Notes: generated by a model from the sequence alone, not told the origin. A DNA stretch of 64,000 nucleotides from Amoebophrya sp. A120 (GCA_905178155.1 CAJINV010000006.1:2582658-2646657), one strand, 5' to 3'. Numbered from the stretch's first letter, positions 1,712 to 64,000 are shown. Numbers and translations are program-made.

Positions 1712-4700
1712 TCAGTGCTGAAACTCCGGCGGGATAAAGCCACCATCAATCGGCGGTACGCCCATCGGATTCATCATCCCAGTTATCGTACGAAAAAAGT
1801 GTTTCACAACTGCGAGGATAATTTTGCAGCTTTTGCATCACAAGTTTGTTCTACACGACAGAGAAAATTCGCCATGCGAGGTTCCTAAGGTAAAACTACA
1901 CTGCCAAAAATGAAAATCCTCCGTTGTCTTGTTACATGTGTAGCATGACAAAGAACACTTCTGCGATGCATTTTCTGCATCACAAGTTTACAGCGAAACA
2001 GTTTTTTCTTGCGATACCCATGTCTGGGCCGGGTCCGAAGCCGCCCTTCATCATTCCCCCCGGAGGTCCGCCGAATCCACCCTTCATCATGGGATCATAT
2101 CATATGTAAAAACGAACCCAAAGCGTAGGTATTCAGGTAGGGAAATCTGCAAGACAAATCACTGAGCTTTATTGGCTGTTGCGCATGACAAGTTTCAGTT
2201 CGCAGTGTTGTCCCGTTTAGCTAGTGCAGCAGCATCAAAAATGTAGCGTTTCATGCTGATTCGAGCATCACAAATTTCAAAACAGCACTAGAAAATGCGC
2301 TTCATGGGGCTCCGCATGAGAGACATTCTGGGGACGTTTTTACACAGGATAGATCAAACCCGCCCTTCATGCCGCCATCAAAACCACCACTGTTGAATCC
2401 TATCAACTGCAAATATCCCTGGGTGTCTGGAAATTATGACGCAACTTGTGATGCTGCCTTTCCATTCTAACAAAGTCTGTATTGCATGGGCAGCAAGAAA
2501 AGTCTATTGGCTGCTACGTGTAGTAGGGGGTACTTATTTCTCATGCGGTATAGGCATTAGGAAGCCCTCACAAAACCTGTCATGCTACGGCGTGCATCAC
2601 AGACATCGTGAGTTATCCAAAATCTGCATGACAAACCTTCCACTCATCCAGACCCAGACGACATATTTGCAATTCATAAATCCCTTGTCCTTCCCAAATC
2701 CGCCGAAGCCGCCGCCGCCAAACTTCCCCTTGCCAAATATCAAATGCAAATAAGTCTGGGTCTGGAACTTTGCTAGACTTGTCATGCTGGTTTTCCATGA
2801 GCCATATGATCTGCAATGGAGGACCTAGCATGACAGATTCCGTGAGATCACTATCATGCCTATCCTGCATGACAAACTGCCTCCCAACTTGATCTAAAGT
2901 GGACAGCATTTGGTAATCATGCAGCACAGATTTTTGCATGATTCAGATTTAGCATGACAAGTTCGCATCCTTCCAGACCCCGACATATTTGCAATGCATA
3001 CCAAAGCCCCCGCCGCCAAACTTGCCGAAGCCCTTGCCTTTACCCTTGCCGAAGCCGCCTTTCTTACCTTGGTGTCAGTTGACAGTTGTGTAGTGGACAT
3101 AGTTGTTTATGTTTTCCTTTTCGCGTGAAAAATTAAATTTGAAAAAAGACTTTTCGTATTCTTACATGACAGAACTTTATTTGAAGGATCGCTTTGGCGT
3201 CTCAATCTAAGGGACGGGGACCACACCAATTTACTTATTTGCGTGAAAAGCCACCAGCCAGAATCAGAAAAAAAATACTCTACCAAAATTGTCAAATCCT
3301 CCAAACTATGAACTGCAAAAGCATCGTACTAGTGATACAAAAGTAAATTGCATTAGCATTACAAATTTGCTCAGCATTAGAAGTGGAATTTGTAATGCGG
3401 ATGTACCTTAATGAAAAAATTTGTAATGCATGAATCCGATTAGTACGAGTACGATACTTTTGCAGTTCATACGAACTTCCCGCCTTTTCGGAAGCCCTTC
3501 TCTACGCCTGTTCCGCCTGTGACATTTGAGGCCTTTGCATCAAAATGAAATATCCTCCCACCCAATAGTGAAACTGAGAACTTGTCATGCTAATTTCTTT
3601 TTGAAAACTTGTCATGCTGATTAGTAGCCGCAAGTCATGTCGTCTTCACGCTAGAAACGCAAAACATGCGGACTTTAGTGCTGGCTCGCGTGGGAAGGCA
3701 AAGGCCTTGCATTTTCAGCATGACAGGCACAGGAGGCAACTGGAGGTGGGAAACAGCATAACAAATTACCCGCAATAACAAGGCCAGAACTGCGTCTCTT
3801 GCCCCTCTAGCAATACAATTACAAACTGATTTGTATACGAAAATCCAGCATCACAGATTTTCTGTCCGATATGGGATGGGGGATTCATTTTCCTCACAGT
3901 ACTTTGACTTCTGCTTTGCTTCGTCGAAGGACTCGTCGTAATGAACCTAGTTTGGAAAGATTCTTGCAATACAAATTTTTACGTTTTAATATTTCCCTAT
4001 ACGTTTCTTGAATTATGCCTCGTTCGCATGACAAATTCCACAGCTGGAGCAACCTCGACGTTGATGGTGAACTACGTCTCAACGTCAACCCATTTCGATT
4101 TCCTTTTCCTTTTCCGCATGACAAAAAGCACCACTACCACTTGTAAGAAGTGCCCTCAAGTCAAGTCAAGTCAACGCGTGGGCTAGTCTCTGAATAGTAA
4201 TCCTCGCTCAGAGATTTGTCGAAAGTATCGTAGCCGTGCGTGTATTGTTATCACGCTCTTCTTCTAGTGGGGGGCTGTGGCCTAACTATCTGACCATGTA
4301 CGTTCCGTCAGATTCTTTTTGGAACCACACGCCCGCCACCTGCACCTCTTCCTTGCCGGTGTTTTCGCAGAAGAAAACCTCGCCCACCTGGAATACTATT
4401 CCTGGGTCGTCTTCCAATTCCCAAAAACCCGTCCTGTTACTGATCTGTTTCCACTTTTTCCCGTGGAGACTCGCGGCCACCTGTGCCCGCGCCTGCTCTT
4501 CTTCTGCCTTTTGCTGGTCCAGCCTTCTTCGGCGTTCCGCCTGCATTTCCTGCGCCCGTTCGGACTTCTGCCCCGGCTTCGGCCCCTTTTTTCCTGGGGG
4601 TTTTTTGGCTGTTGCGTACGGCCGGCGCCTTGTCAGCATTTCGCGCACCACCGGCCCCGCCGGCTTTTGCAGCTCTAGGTCTTGCAGCGTCAGGCCATAG

Positions 4701-5074
4701 TGCTCTAGATCTGCTGCTGCCAGCTTGCCCCATGGCGTGCCTTCTTCGATTTCCCGGCGGATTCTTGTGATGGAACCCTCCCCCGAGGAATCCCGCGCTG
4801 CGTGACCGATCCAAGAGATTCTTTTTTCCCTTATCTCCGTTTCGATCAGCTGCACCCCGAGGGACTGGCATAACTCCGCCCGTGATGGGGATGCTTCCCA
4901 GTCCCAGATTCCAAAAAAGAAGTGCCCTCTATTCTATATAAGTACCTCATCTCCTTCTTGCAATGGCGCGCCCTGTACATCGTTTGCGTGCACAAACACA
5001 TCGCCTTGTTCTGTCTCGATGAAGCCGAACCCCTTGGCCTGGTTGAAAAATTTTACGACGCCGGAGCAAGCCAT
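1712..5074 (-). CDS. Cold-shock domain protein with Gly-rich (GKG/GGF/PMM) C-terminal tail, multi-exon
   Basis: Exon 5074-4946 [43 protein letters not shown] (RNP1 KGFGFI, RNP2 VFVH); GT-AG intron 4945-3947; then [24 protein letters not shown]...; ends [24 protein letters not shown] (1714-1712). Six introners plus canonical introns. Confidence 0.92.
1784..2016. mobile_element. Introner family G/H
   Basis: TIR tatcgtacgaaaaaagtgtttc / gaaacagttttttcttgcgata; DR imperfect. Confidence 0.75.
2098..2351. mobile_element. Introner family C
   Basis: TIR tatc..tgtaaaaacg; DR gatca. Confidence 0.8.
2401..2678. mobile_element. Introner family A
   Basis: TIR tat...tgcaaatatgtctgg type; DR aatcc. Confidence 0.85.
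2738..3000. mobile_element. Introner family A
   Basis: TIR; DR ccaaa. Confidence 0.9.
3307..3471. mobile_element. Introner family B
   Basis: TIR tatgaactgcaaaag.atcgtac; DR caaac/cgaac. Confidence 0.9.
3538..3901. mobile_element. Introner family E (diverged)
   Basis: Degenerate TIR; DR ctttg; removal restores [11 protein letters not shown]. Confidence 0.8.
4158..4916 (-). mobile_element. 5'-truncated RTE-like non-LTR retrotransposon in intron 1 of the CSD gene
   Basis: ORF with FFGIWDW...[18 protein letters not shown] (RTE post-RT motif RLRWxGHxxR); (TTGAC)n 3' tail; 13-bp TSD aagaagtgccctc at 4145-4157 and 4917-4929. Confidence 0.85.
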
Positions 5075-62150: not shown

Positions 62151-64000
62151 CTACTTCCCATAAATCCGGAAGTCCCCTTCCAGAGACGCCAGCATTTTCT
62201 GGTTCCTCTCAAACACATCTGACAACAGACTGTCACTCTGGTTATAGTGGCGATTTAGCTGTTGAGACGTTGAAAAATTTTGCATGACAGAAGTGCCCAT
62301 GGTAGAAGTTGCGGACAGATTTAGGAGCGATTTGTTCATCATCTGCGTTTGATGTTCTCTACTGCTTCCTTGCATGGTCGGCATAACTAATCCCGCGCTA
62401 TTAGAAGAAGAAATGTTCTTGCTTGCCAACACCGCCGCAGCCGCCACGTCGTCCTTTGCGTTCCGGCCCAACAGCTATGACAGTGCACAGCTTCCCCGCC
62501 GCGCCCTCATTTGTATAGCATGAACGGCAATACAAGCATCAGCAAGACAGCCGGTTTTGCATGACAATTTGGTACTAGATCGTAGTGCTACTTGGGCTAC
62601 CAGAACTTGTCATGCATAATAGTGACAGGAGGGAAAGCGTGGAATTGGTATTCTGCATGAGAAATGTGAACGAGGGGGAGTTGTGCACTGTAATACCAGC
62701 TCCGCCTGGCACCGGATCAGCTCACGTCGCGCCAGCCCCACACAGTCGATGTTCGCAAACGTTTCGTTCGAGATGGCGCCGGCGGTTTTCCGCAAGGGGG
62801 AGTTTTGCTTTTGCTCTTCCGACTTCACTAGCACTTGATACTCAAAGATCACAGGAAAAAAGTATTACAGTTACAGATTTGTTGGAGTTTCATCATCACA
62901 AAGTTGCTCGACATGGCAACGAAAACCTGTGATGCGCAGACTATAACGGAAAACACGCACGAAATGAGGCTGGCGCTGGTAAGCATTTTCTGCATGACAG
63001 AGGTTGTCTGTCTTGCTTGGCTTCTATCACGTTGTGTAAGTGTAACACTTTTTTCTTACGATATCAAAAACCTTGCACGCGCGCACGTACTCGAGAAACT
63101 CCTTTTCCAGCGCGATCTGGTTGGAAAACGACCGAACCATCCGGCCCTTTATGGGAGTGTCAGGATCGAAATCGACATAATCGAAAAATTTGCAATGCAT
63201 AAAATGTAGGGCCCGCAAGGCCTGTGTTGGAGAGGAGGCAAATGAGACCGATCGCAAGCCTGTTTAGCCCTATACATGTACTGCCAGAGTAGCATGACAG
63301 GCGCAATCTTCTTTGCCTACACAGCATGACAGACTGGGTTTTGGTGCTCCCAAAATTTGTCATGCGCCACTTAGAAACTGAGGCTCCAACTGGTATCGAT
63401 TTTATGCATCACAAATTATTTCGATTTTGTTAATTTCGATCCTGACGCTTCCATACCCTTCTCCACCGTCGTGATGACAAACTCGCTTCTATTATCCCGG
63501 GGAAACATCCCCCCTCCCTATATCGAAAAGGTACGTCGCAGAAAATTTGCAATGCTGATTTGCGACCACAAATGATCTCTGTCTTGCAAGAAGGCAATTC
63601 CACAGGCCCCGCCGCATTATGCAGGCGATTCGTTTGTGATGCTGTTTGGCCTACAGCGCAGACGTTTCTCATGCTAAGCGCCTAGGCCAAAACCTCTCTA
63701 CTCAGGCTTGATGTGGGCCTGCAGTCCTCTTCAGCAAGACAAATCTGATTTGTGTACTCAAATCCAGCATCACAAATTTCGTTTTCGATATGGGGAGGAG
63801 GGATTTTTCCTTTTGATATCTATCCTCGGCAAAGACGTACGACCCACGCTGCAGTCTGTAGTGGGAACAAGACGCGCTACACATCAAATGCCTATAACAA
63901 ACCTGGAGGCGCAGCGTAGGTTTGCTTACCTACAAAAGCAGCATCACAAAGCCACCGGCTCCTCCTGACTCCAGTACCACAGATGGAAAATGCCGACTAC
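62151..64000 (-). CDS. 3' part of a hypothetical multi-exon gene running off the window
   Basis: Exon frames RMVRSFSNQIALEKEFLEYVRACKVF, ...KMLASLEGDFRIYGK-TAG separated by three introners. Confidence 0.5.
62847..63063. mobile_element. Introner family G (diverged)
   Basis: TIR gaaaaaagt.ttaca; DR tcaaa. Confidence 0.75.
63150..63455. mobile_element. Introner family D
   Basis: TIR; DR ccctt. Confidence 0.9.
63493..63818. mobile_element. Introner family E
   Basis: TIR; DR tctat. Confidence 0.85.

What the first reader, a model, noticed from the sequence alone, without database searches (positions are those of the whole stretch)
1784..63818. One octamer, GCAT(G/C/T)ACA / TGT(C/G/A)ATGC, marks all intron types including ordinary GT-AG introns
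Seen: all seven introner families, whose TIRs are unrelated, are filled with this motif on both strands, often as inverted pairs (tctgtgatgc-N7-gcatcacaga). TIR-less canonical introns also carry it: the 121-nt GT-AG TOP1 intron 59107-58987 has four GCATGAC copies; also ~21790-21900, 25300-25520, 59980-60460, 62480-62700. It is rare in exons and intergenic DNA. Inference: a genome-wide, strand-symmetric intron-definition code read by a protein (core resembles the Rbfox site UGCAUG) that could let any element carrying it be spliced. This is the best candidate here for an undescribed system.
Basis: partly seen in the sequence, partly recalled or inferred. Interest (0 to 1): 0.85.

Follow-up and report, generated by a model that had tools for sequence, protein, structure and literature searches.

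The report
Helically phased motif in Amoebophrya introns
In the marine parasite Amoebophrya A120 one short DNA word is packed, at spacings matching whole and half turns of the double helix, into its transposon-like introns and into most ordinary introns checked, but several introns are removed without it, so it is likely a grip for a DNA-binding protein that moves these elements rather than a universal splicing code.

Summary
The motif is real: 277 copies against 7.3 expected. The window is Amoebrophrya-type DNA; its TOP1 exon is 100% identical to an A120 protein. 254 of 277 copies lie in 91 TAT…ATA introners with 5-bp duplications, a published class; I found no description of the motif in print. 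TIR-less GT-AG introns do carry it: 6 of 8 contig-spliced ones, about 18 times intergenic density, with the same 32-34-nt spacing. It does not mark every intron: 9 of 31 spliced introns lack the octamer, including all 8 in one gene. Spacing fits B-DNA (10.25-10.5, not 11). The Rbfox, branch-point and RNA-pairing readings failed. Cores are conserved in young copies (0.33 of interior rate) but not in five aged copies (1.0). Best reading: subterminal binding array for the mobilising protein complex. Its presence in GT-AG introns is unexplained and may mean a host factor. The scan already noted the motif and its phasing on other pieces of this genome; the GT-AG result and the motif-free spliced introns were not in the notes I retrieved.

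The parts
1835..63948 (.). Span of the 277 exact GCAT[GCT]ACA copies (both strands); 254 lie in 91 TAT...ATA elements covering 24,925 nt
52710..61215 (-). DNA topoisomerase I gene of Amoebophrya sp. A120 (protein P0001); 17 introns located from contigs (12 non-canonical, 5 GT-AG), two more TIR introns not shown by the tool
58987..59107 (-). 121-nt GT-AG intron without TIR; sites at 39, 48, 71 (and a weak one at about 82) from the 5' end, all antisense; 32-nt pair
57557..57661 (-). 105-nt GT-AG intron without TIR; 32-nt same-orientation pair plus an opposite site 16 nt further
59972..60153 (-). 182-nt GT-AG intron without TIR; four matrix sites, 34-nt pair (ends inferred from contig coordinates and P0001)
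55548..55693 (-). 146-nt GT-AG intron, one site 24 nt from the 5' end
59496..59752 (-). 257-nt GT-AG intron, no exact octamer, one variant site
32102..32278 (-). 177-nt GT-AG intron, one exact octamer with poor flanks (below matrix threshold)
32751..33082 (-). 332-nt GT-AG intron, one site
37056..37398 (-). 343-nt GT-AG intron with no exact or matrix site (counter-example)
37753..42835 (-). Seven aged non-canonical introns (234-535 nt) of 'gene D': TA[TC]...ATA ends kept, no exact octamer, 3 internal matrix sites in 2,737 nt; removal restores a 1,105-codon frame (counter-examples)
56440..56724 (.). Spliced TIR introner whose six sites are all antisense on the transcript (against branch-point and RNA self-pairing roles)
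25278..25506 (.).
62476..62695 (.).
60239..60458 (.).
60517..60684 (-). Phased three-site cluster (61 and 32 nt apart) upstream of the TOP1 start, retained in contigs X3 and X7; possibly an outron (inference)
21779..21911 (-). Putative GT-AG intron with a 33-nt pair of sites; not tested with RNA

Best explanation
The motif is an approximately 11-base word repeated on both strands at helix-turn spacings inside the known Amoebophrya A120 introners, and it is likely a subterminal binding array for the double-stranded-DNA-binding complex (transposase or its DNA-bending partner) that would mobilise them, not the signal that defines introns. Shown: the array, its spacing (31-33 nt in the same orientation, half-turn offset in the opposite one), its conservation within families, its enrichment in GT-AG introns, and contigs lacking introns that have no copy. 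Inferred: several protein units bind sites on one face of the helix 35-47 and 65-80 bp inside each TAT end and bend the 150-350-bp element so that its ends meet. Selection keeps the sites on lineages that still move, and resident copies lose them while staying spliceable. Also inferred: removal from RNA depends on the terminal N-TA[TC]...ATA-NNNN register and end-to-end hairpin. The copies in GT-AG introns are not explained by this model alone. They are either internal pieces of unsampled introners or sites kept because the binding protein also serves the host (rival 1).
For: Phasing: 25 of 92 same-orientation pairs at 31-33 nt with one element per cluster, null mean 3.2, maximum 10 in 1,000. 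Opposite-orientation pairs are coherent at period 10.25-10.5 (R 0.44, 0.42) with a half-turn offset, against 0.21 at period 11; 0 of 1,000 nulls reach it. Sites sit at recurrent distances from the element ends across clusters. Families insert in both orientations, and one family carries nearly all sites in one direction. Constraint: core 0.056 against interior 0.20 and TIR 0.13 between nearest copies, while the variable base changes at 0.19. Changes shared by several copies spare the core seven-fold (0.025 against 0.177). Opportunity-corrected private changes give a core/interior ratio of 0.33 (0.22-0.46) in 47 young copies and 1.0 (0.48-1.54) in 5 aged copies. Density falls from about 21/kb (duplication 4-5/5) to 5-11/kb (0-3/5), rho 0.52 over 91 elements. 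Gene D's seven non-canonical introns have 3 internal sites in 2,737 nt against 84 in 4,191 nt for the other 16. They keep TA[TC]...ATA ends, and 6 of 7 fold 10-15 end-to-end pairs against 1.5-4.3 in shuffles. Precedent: Hermes ends carry 17 and 14 short subterminal repeats in both orientations, bound by the transposase BED domain (PMC10368747, passages).
Against: 6 of 8 TIR-less GT-AG introns hold matrix sites, and all 3 with two same-orientation sites keep a 32-34-nt pair (chance about 0.001). They show no TIR signal in 7 of 8, none has ATA at -7..-5, and their site flanks match introners no better than unrelated families do (15.7 against 15.9; same family 20.4). Neutral decay of whole elements does not predict this. 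The aged-copy result rests on 5 copies. Two other age splits showed little or no relaxation: core/interior stays about 0.27-0.30 across identity bands and is 0.40, 0.32, 0.48 across TIR-age thirds. No transposase was found (none of 9 ORFs scanned), and Farhat et al. found putative transposases only in A25 (PMC7789003 section 16). Clusters are not fully independent, and beyond the 32-nt peak the same-orientation periodicity is modest (0.15, equalled at periods 9.25 and 13.25). Gene D rests mostly on one contig of one run whose RNA nature is the tool's guess. No binding was tested.
Confidence: 0.52

Rival explanations
1. The reader is a host chromatin protein (or a domesticated transposase) that binds phased sites in intron DNA and helps co-transcriptional intron recognition, above all for GT-AG introns that have no terminal hairpin; introners would have adopted the sites. 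It would be an enhancer redundant with the hairpin, not an obligatory code.
For: Enrichment and phase in TIR-less GT-AG introns, with flanks unlike sampled families. The five TOP1 GT-AG introns all have a site and fold no end-to-end pairs, while motif-poor gene D introns mostly do. Sharing across different TIRs. About 19% of A120 introns are position-shared with A25 and 98.6% of those are canonical, against 35% canonical overall (PMC7789003 section 12, Table S4), so roughly half of GT-AG introns should predate the A120 families (my arithmetic). U1 snRNA was not detected in A120.
Against: 37056-37398 is a GT-AG intron spliced with no site and little end pairing. Cores are unprotected in five aged copies. 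Only 28 clusters of about 1,954 published families were sampled, so lack of flank similarity is weak. n = 8 introns, 5 from one gene. Intron age could not be tested.
Confidence: 0.27
2. One reading: an RNA-level intron-definition code read by an Rbfox-like protein, so that any carrier is spliced.
For: Confined to introns, both canonical and non-canonical; conserved cores.
Against: UGCAUG sense 58 against antisense 57; 63 of 416 sites contain it; the informative bases (GCA, ACA, RR) lie mostly outside it. Spliced introns exist with only sense, only antisense or no sites. The phased cluster at 60517-60684 is retained. Rigid B-DNA phase. A 2026 review of dinoflagellate RNA-binding proteins has no mention of Rbfox or Fox.
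Confidence: 0.06
3. The phased words position or rotate nucleosomes (or dinoflagellate histone substitutes) on introns, leaving short exons as accessible linkers.
For: Period 10.25-10.5. One family is 146-176 nt long and many exons between elements are 40-70 nt. Introners of other algae favour linkers (PMC9860276 passages).
Against: A site with six nearly invariant bases and strict avoidance of A at +4 and G at -1 is unlike diffuse nucleosome signals (own knowledge). Element lengths run continuously from 217 to 364, and exon gaps show no 10.5 period.
Confidence: 0.09
4. The inverted copies pair in the pre-mRNA and extend the hairpin that brings the splice sites together; or the UnAC core is a branch point supplied in both orientations.
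For: Mirror-placed outward pairs in several families. Young elements fold strongly (z -6 to -10). The core contains T-N-A-C (sequence; branch consensus recalled).
Against: The variable base is complementary in 20 of 61 mirror pairs against 20.0 expected. One family and the TOP1 121-nt intron have one orientation only. Only 14 of 31 spliced introns have a sense site in the last 60 nt, and 12 of 31 have no sense site at all.
Confidence: 0.06

Closest known systems
Introner elements (IEs) of Amoebophrya sp. A120 (Farhat et al. 2021, PMC7789003; abstract, sections 11, 12, 16 whole, other passages and supplement text searched)
   Same: Same organism label (P0001). Terminal inverted repeats starting TAT, seven variable bases, then an A run; short direct repeats; non-canonical ends; absent from transcript-like contigs.
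   Different: The paper describes terminal repeats only. The strings GCAT, TGTC, subterminal and periodic occur 0 times in its main text and GCATG 0 times in the supplement text (figures not visible). The internal phased motif and its presence in GT-AG introns are not described in what I read.
Subterminal repeats of hAT transposons, e.g. Hermes STRs bound by BED domains (PMC10368747, passages)
   Same: Many short copies inside both ends, in both orientations, asymmetric between ends, in a TIR element with a target duplication.
   Different: Here the duplication is 5 bp (Hermes: 8-bp target), the word is about 11 bp (Hermes: 4 bp), spacing is helically phased, one word is shared by families with different TIRs, and copies occur in non-mobile GT-AG introns. 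No cognate enzyme is known.
Rbfox UGCAUG intronic splicing elements (recalled; no paper read)
   Same: GCATG appears in 179 of 416 sites.
   Different: No sense bias, only 63 of 416 sites have the full hexamer, most information lies in other positions, and spacing follows the DNA helix.
Hairpin-defined non-canonical introns of euglenids and Fritillaria (PMC11282704, passages)
   Same: TIR-derived ends, traces of target duplications, end-to-end pairing predicted.
   Different: No internal repeated motif was mentioned in the passages read. The motif here does not covary as a pairing element.

Membership tests
Amoebophrya A120 introner elements | Host is Amoebophrya sp. A120 | tested here: met
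   TOP1 exon 100% identical to P0001, named Amoebophrya sp. A120 by its source
Amoebophrya A120 introner elements | Terminal inverted repeats starting TAT, with an A run after seven bases | tested here: met
   TAT or a one-base variant at both ends of the listed elements; A run in most clusters, absent in the two clusters starting TATGGGAGTGTCAGG and TATGACTTGCTC
Amoebophrya A120 introner elements | 3-5-nt direct repeats at the borders | tested here: met
   5-bp duplication matches at 4-5 of 5 in 67 of 91 elements
Amoebophrya A120 introner elements | Removed from transcripts at non-GT-AG borders | tested here: met
   23 non-canonical joints shown or implied in contigs X3/X7; the RNA label is the tool's guess
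Transposase subterminal repeats (works-like) | Multiple short copies inside both ends, both orientations | tested here: met
Transposase subterminal repeats (works-like) | Conserved on mobile lineages, decaying in immobile copies | tested here: inconclusive
   Ratio 0.33 young against 1.0 in 5 aged copies and density falls with age; no trend by identity band or TIR-age third
Transposase subterminal repeats (works-like) | Bound by the cognate transposase | not testable with these tools
   No transposase among 9 ORFs scanned; no whole genome held
hAT superfamily | 8-bp target duplication | tested here: not met
   5 bp here; Hermes 8-bp target in PMC10368747 passage
Rbfox-type RNA enhancer | UGCAUG enriched on the sense strand | tested here: not met
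   58 sense, 57 antisense; 63 of 416 sites
Rbfox-type RNA enhancer | Rbfox protein encoded by A120 | not tested
   No genome available; no mention in PMC12787238
Universal intron-definition signal | Present in every spliced intron | tested here: not met
   9 of 31 lack the octamer, 7 of 31 lack a matrix site, 6 lack both
Branch-point sequence | Sense copy near the 3' end of each intron | tested here: not met
   14 of 31 have a sense site in the last 60 nt; 12 of 31 have none
RNA pairing element | Covariation between inverted partners | tested here: not met
   20 of 61 complementary at the variable base against 20.0 expected

The most novel reading that the evidence does not exclude
A120, in which U1 snRNA has not been detected, marks introns on the DNA: a sequence-specific protein, perhaps a domesticated introner transposase, binds pairs of sites three helical turns apart and hands the intron to the spliceosome during transcription. 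Hairpin-less GT-AG introns depend on this mark, while introners can fall back on their terminal hairpin. This would be intron definition written in double-stranded DNA.
Probability: 0.17. Interest if true: 0.88.

Novelty: new variant of a known kind. Interest (0 to 1): 0.52.

Why it matters
How A120's roughly 1,950 introner families move and how its non-canonical introns are removed are open questions in the published work, and no transposase has been assigned. One shared, helically phased site gives a bait for finding the protein and a signature for finding autonomous elements. The motif-free spliced introns separate the mobility signal from the splicing signal and point to the terminal register and hairpin for splicing. 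The phased copies in ordinary GT-AG introns are the unexplained part: if they sit in introns older than the introners, a transposon site has become a host signal, or the reverse, in an organism apparently without U1.

Tried and rejected
No whole genome is held, so all statistics come from this 64-kb window. No RNA holder is on record for the queried stretch. Raw-read runs X9 and X10 laid only 4 and 65 partial reads and were uninformative; X4 and X5 behaved as thin unspliced coverage. Both lays hid joints (17 and 30 rows not shown), so two TOP1 TIR introns and the 43.5-44.1-kb introns were left out of the 31. One displayed joint (47217-47295) and the joints inside or between introner copies were dropped as cross-mapping. 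Age of the GT-AG introns: the TOP1 scan of metagenomes found nothing with the single protein. With an alignment it gave 80 mostly intron-free loci, none with a break at the four conserved-region A120 positions, so this is uninformative. A TIR pattern found nothing in viral or prokaryote collections. A three-site phased pattern found 23 viral stretches, which on inspection are mostly simple tandem repeats in one orientation. Protein look-ups to fix the gene models at 20.3-22.8 kb returned nothing, and a scripted parse was ambiguous; eight exact copies at 4026, 4116, 22034-22670 and 63941 therefore stay unassigned. By eye, GT-AG sites seemed to resemble particular families, or to come from local tandem duplication; both ideas failed the controls. 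No helical period in exon lengths. No Rfam match. Target-duplication decay is an imperfect clock: 32378 has 1/5 yet is 82% like a relative. The matrix was trained on the 67 young elements, so their density (21.5/kb) is circular; the other classes were not in training, and the 8-bit cut-off was my choice. Huff et al. 2016 and a recalled Hermes structure paper were not held; Roy et al. 2023 and Henriet et al. 2019 were not seen.

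
Full report
1. What the window is. A TOP1 exon (59110-59493, minus) is 100% identical to protein P0001, labelled Amoebophrya sp. A120 by its source (Pfam topoisomerase I). No whole genome is held, so every count below is from 64 kb. I located 84 elements with TAT...ATA ends and inverted repeats, and 7 more aged ones from contig joints. 67 of the 91 have a 5-bp duplication matching at 4-5 of 5. Removing an element plus five bases opens frames of 998, 796 and 698 codons. 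These match the published A120 introner elements: inverted repeats starting TAT, seven variable bases and an A run, with short direct repeats (PMC7789003 section 11).

2. The observation. GCAT[GCT]ACA occurs 277 times (153 +, 124 -) against 7.3 +- 2.7 in shuffles. An iterated matrix from the 67 young elements gives about H-GCAT-B-ACA-R-R-Y, with tolerated variants. 254 of 277 exact copies lie in the 91 elements. Matrix sites per kb (8 bits): young elements 21.5 (training set), aged elements outside gene D 11.9, contig-spliced GT-AG introns 7.8, gene D non-canonical introns 1.4, coding exons 0.65, intergenic 0.42. The 121-nt TOP1 intron is as described, with four GCATGAC, three of them full octamers. 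Close inverted pairs are few: 7 among 277 sites.

3. Which introns are real. Contigs of X3 and X7 (the RNA label is the tool's guess) skip both TIR elements and GT-AG introns in three genes. I used 31 introns: 25 shown as joints, 3 implied by adjacent record coordinates and 3 inferred from record arithmetic (two of these checked against P0001). 23 are non-canonical and 8 are GT-AG. The five non-canonical joints without ambiguity all cut one base before TAT/TAC and four bases after ATA, and the rest are compatible. All 31 have TA at +2,+3.

4. GT-AG introns carry the motif. 6 of 8 have a matrix site, 6 of 8 an exact octamer, and 7 of 8 one or the other. There are 13 sites in 1,663 nt against 1.6 +- 1.2 in shuffles; against intergenic DNA p is about 7e-9. 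All three with two same-orientation sites have a pair 32-34 nt apart (chance about 0.001). Over 16 site pairs, including two unverified regions, mean phase agreement is 0.66 at period 10.5 against 0.36-0.37 at 10.25 and 11. These introns show no TIR signal in 7 of 8 and no ATA at -7..-5 in any. Their site flanks are no closer to window introners than unrelated families are to each other.

5. It is not required, and not sufficient. In gene D (35.8-43.5 kb), one X3 contig of 7,962 nt lacks seven non-canonical introns and one GT-AG intron, restoring a 1,105-codon frame. None has an exact octamer, and the seven hold 3 internal matrix sites in 2,737 nt against 84 in 4,191 nt for the other 16 non-canonical introns. 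Weak relics are slightly in excess (17 against 7.9 at 4 bits). They keep their TA[TC]...ATA ends, and six of seven fold end to end. Conversely, a phased three-site cluster upstream of the TOP1 start (60517-60684) is retained in both contigs; a minor spliced form cannot be excluded.

6. What reads it. Single-stranded RNA reading is disfavoured. UGCAUG is 58 sense and 57 antisense, and 63 of 416 sites contain it. Spliced introns exist with only antisense, only sense or no sites. RNA pairing is disfavoured: the variable base is complementary in 20 of 61 mirror pairs, exactly as expected by chance. A branch-point role fails (14 of 31 have a sense site in the last 60 nt). Spacing points to double-stranded DNA. 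With one element per cluster, 25 of 92 same-orientation pairs are 31-33 nt apart (null 3.2). Opposite pairs fall near 16, 36, 48, 58, 67 and 100 nt, coherent at 10.25-10.5 with a half-turn offset (R 0.42-0.44; 0.21 at period 11; 0 of 1,000 nulls). Caveats: clusters are partly related, and outside the 32-nt peak the same-orientation period is modest.

7. When selection acts. Between nearest copies, cores differ at 0.056, TIRs at 0.13, interiors at 0.20 and the variable base at 0.19, so simple ancestry is excluded. Changes shared among copies spare the core seven-fold. Corrected private changes give core/interior 0.33 in 47 young copies but 1.0 (0.48-1.54) in 5 aged ones, and density falls with duplication decay (rho 0.52; 0.38 without gene D). 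This is what selection on mobile lineages followed by decay predicts. Against it, the ratio does not change across identity bands and only slightly across TIR-age thirds.

8. Mechanism. Best reading (0.52): a subterminal array for the mobilising complex, akin to the Hermes repeats bound by BED domains (PMC10368747 passages). It is not hAT by membership, since the duplication is 5 bp. Binding, bending and the enzyme are all inferred; no transposase was seen, and Farhat et al. report putative transposases only in A25. Splicing is better explained by the terminal register and hairpin (inferred). The GT-AG copies keep a host-factor reading alive (0.27). Published figures imply that about half of A120's canonical introns predate the split from A25 (my arithmetic), and U1 was not detected. 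I could not date these introns.

9. Novelty. The introners are published. I found no description of the internal motif: library searches, zero hits for GCAT, TGTC, subterminal or periodic in the main text of PMC7789003, and none for GCATG in its supplement text. Figures (including the intron logos), subscription papers (Roy 2023, Henriet 2019, Huff 2016) and the datasets of PMC12130899 were not seen and could bear on this. Other papers were read as passages only: PMC12130899, PMC9860276, PMC11282704, PMC12005148, PMC12787238. Earlier notes of this scan already report the motif, its phasing and the 1+4 cut on other pieces of this genome. The phasing note prompted my periodicity tests; these notes are not independent support. 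I did not meet the phased copies in GT-AG introns or the motif-free spliced introns in the notes retrieved.

10. Verdict. Observation partly confirmed; interpretation partly supported; new variant of a known kind; interest 0.52. The most novel reading not excluded is DNA-level intron marking (probability 0.17, interest 0.88).

Noticed in passing
window, 23 non-canonical introns in 31703-60459: All read N-TA[TC]...AT[AG]-NNNN; the five unambiguous joints cut one base before TAT/TAC and four after ATA. All eight GT-AG introns also start GTA, so TA at +2,+3 is common to both classes. Already noted by the scan elsewhere.
   Followed up: partly
window 33622-43548: A 9.9-kb stretch without the octamer covers most of gene D. 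It is GC-rich, has long exons, only aged introns and no young insertion. Lack of sites and lack of new insertions go together here; cause unknown.
   Followed up: partly
window, intergenic and UTR stretches (about 15 kb): No TAT...ATA element was called there, while 79 of 84 elements lie inside frames of 80 or more codons after excision: strong bias to coding exons.
   Followed up: partly
window 60517-60684: Three phased sites, a TACTAAC and a pyrimidine run ending in CAG just upstream of the TOP1 start, retained in contigs; may be an outron before a trans-splice acceptor (inference).
   Followed up: partly
window 29950-30019 and 31427-31496; 34737-34773 and 35462-35498: A 70-nt direct repeat (97%) 1,477 nt apart and a 37-nt direct repeat (97%) 725 nt apart flank motif-free inserts; a GTGAAA tandem run follows the first copy of the second pair. 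Possibly other mobile elements; two ORFs between the first pair had no Pfam match.
   Followed up: partly
window 4289-5134 (minus): A cold-shock domain ORF (PF00313, E 1e-11) lies next to a 215-codon ORF without Pfam match whose WIGHAAR stretch recalls the tail of LINE reverse transcriptases (recalled, untested); a glycine-rich, introner-riddled ORF follows at 3074-1715.
   Followed up: no
protein P0002: A relative's TOP1 model contains about 40 extra residues after DFLG that look like a retained intron in its gene model.
   Followed up: no
window 44752-51826 and 35825-43470: Record coordinates of the 7,962-nt X3 contig leave 3,431 nt upstream of 43470, about the size of the 293- and 796-codon frames upstream; these may be one gene of over 2,000 codons, but the contig was not listed in the lay of 44-64 kb.
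   Followed up: no
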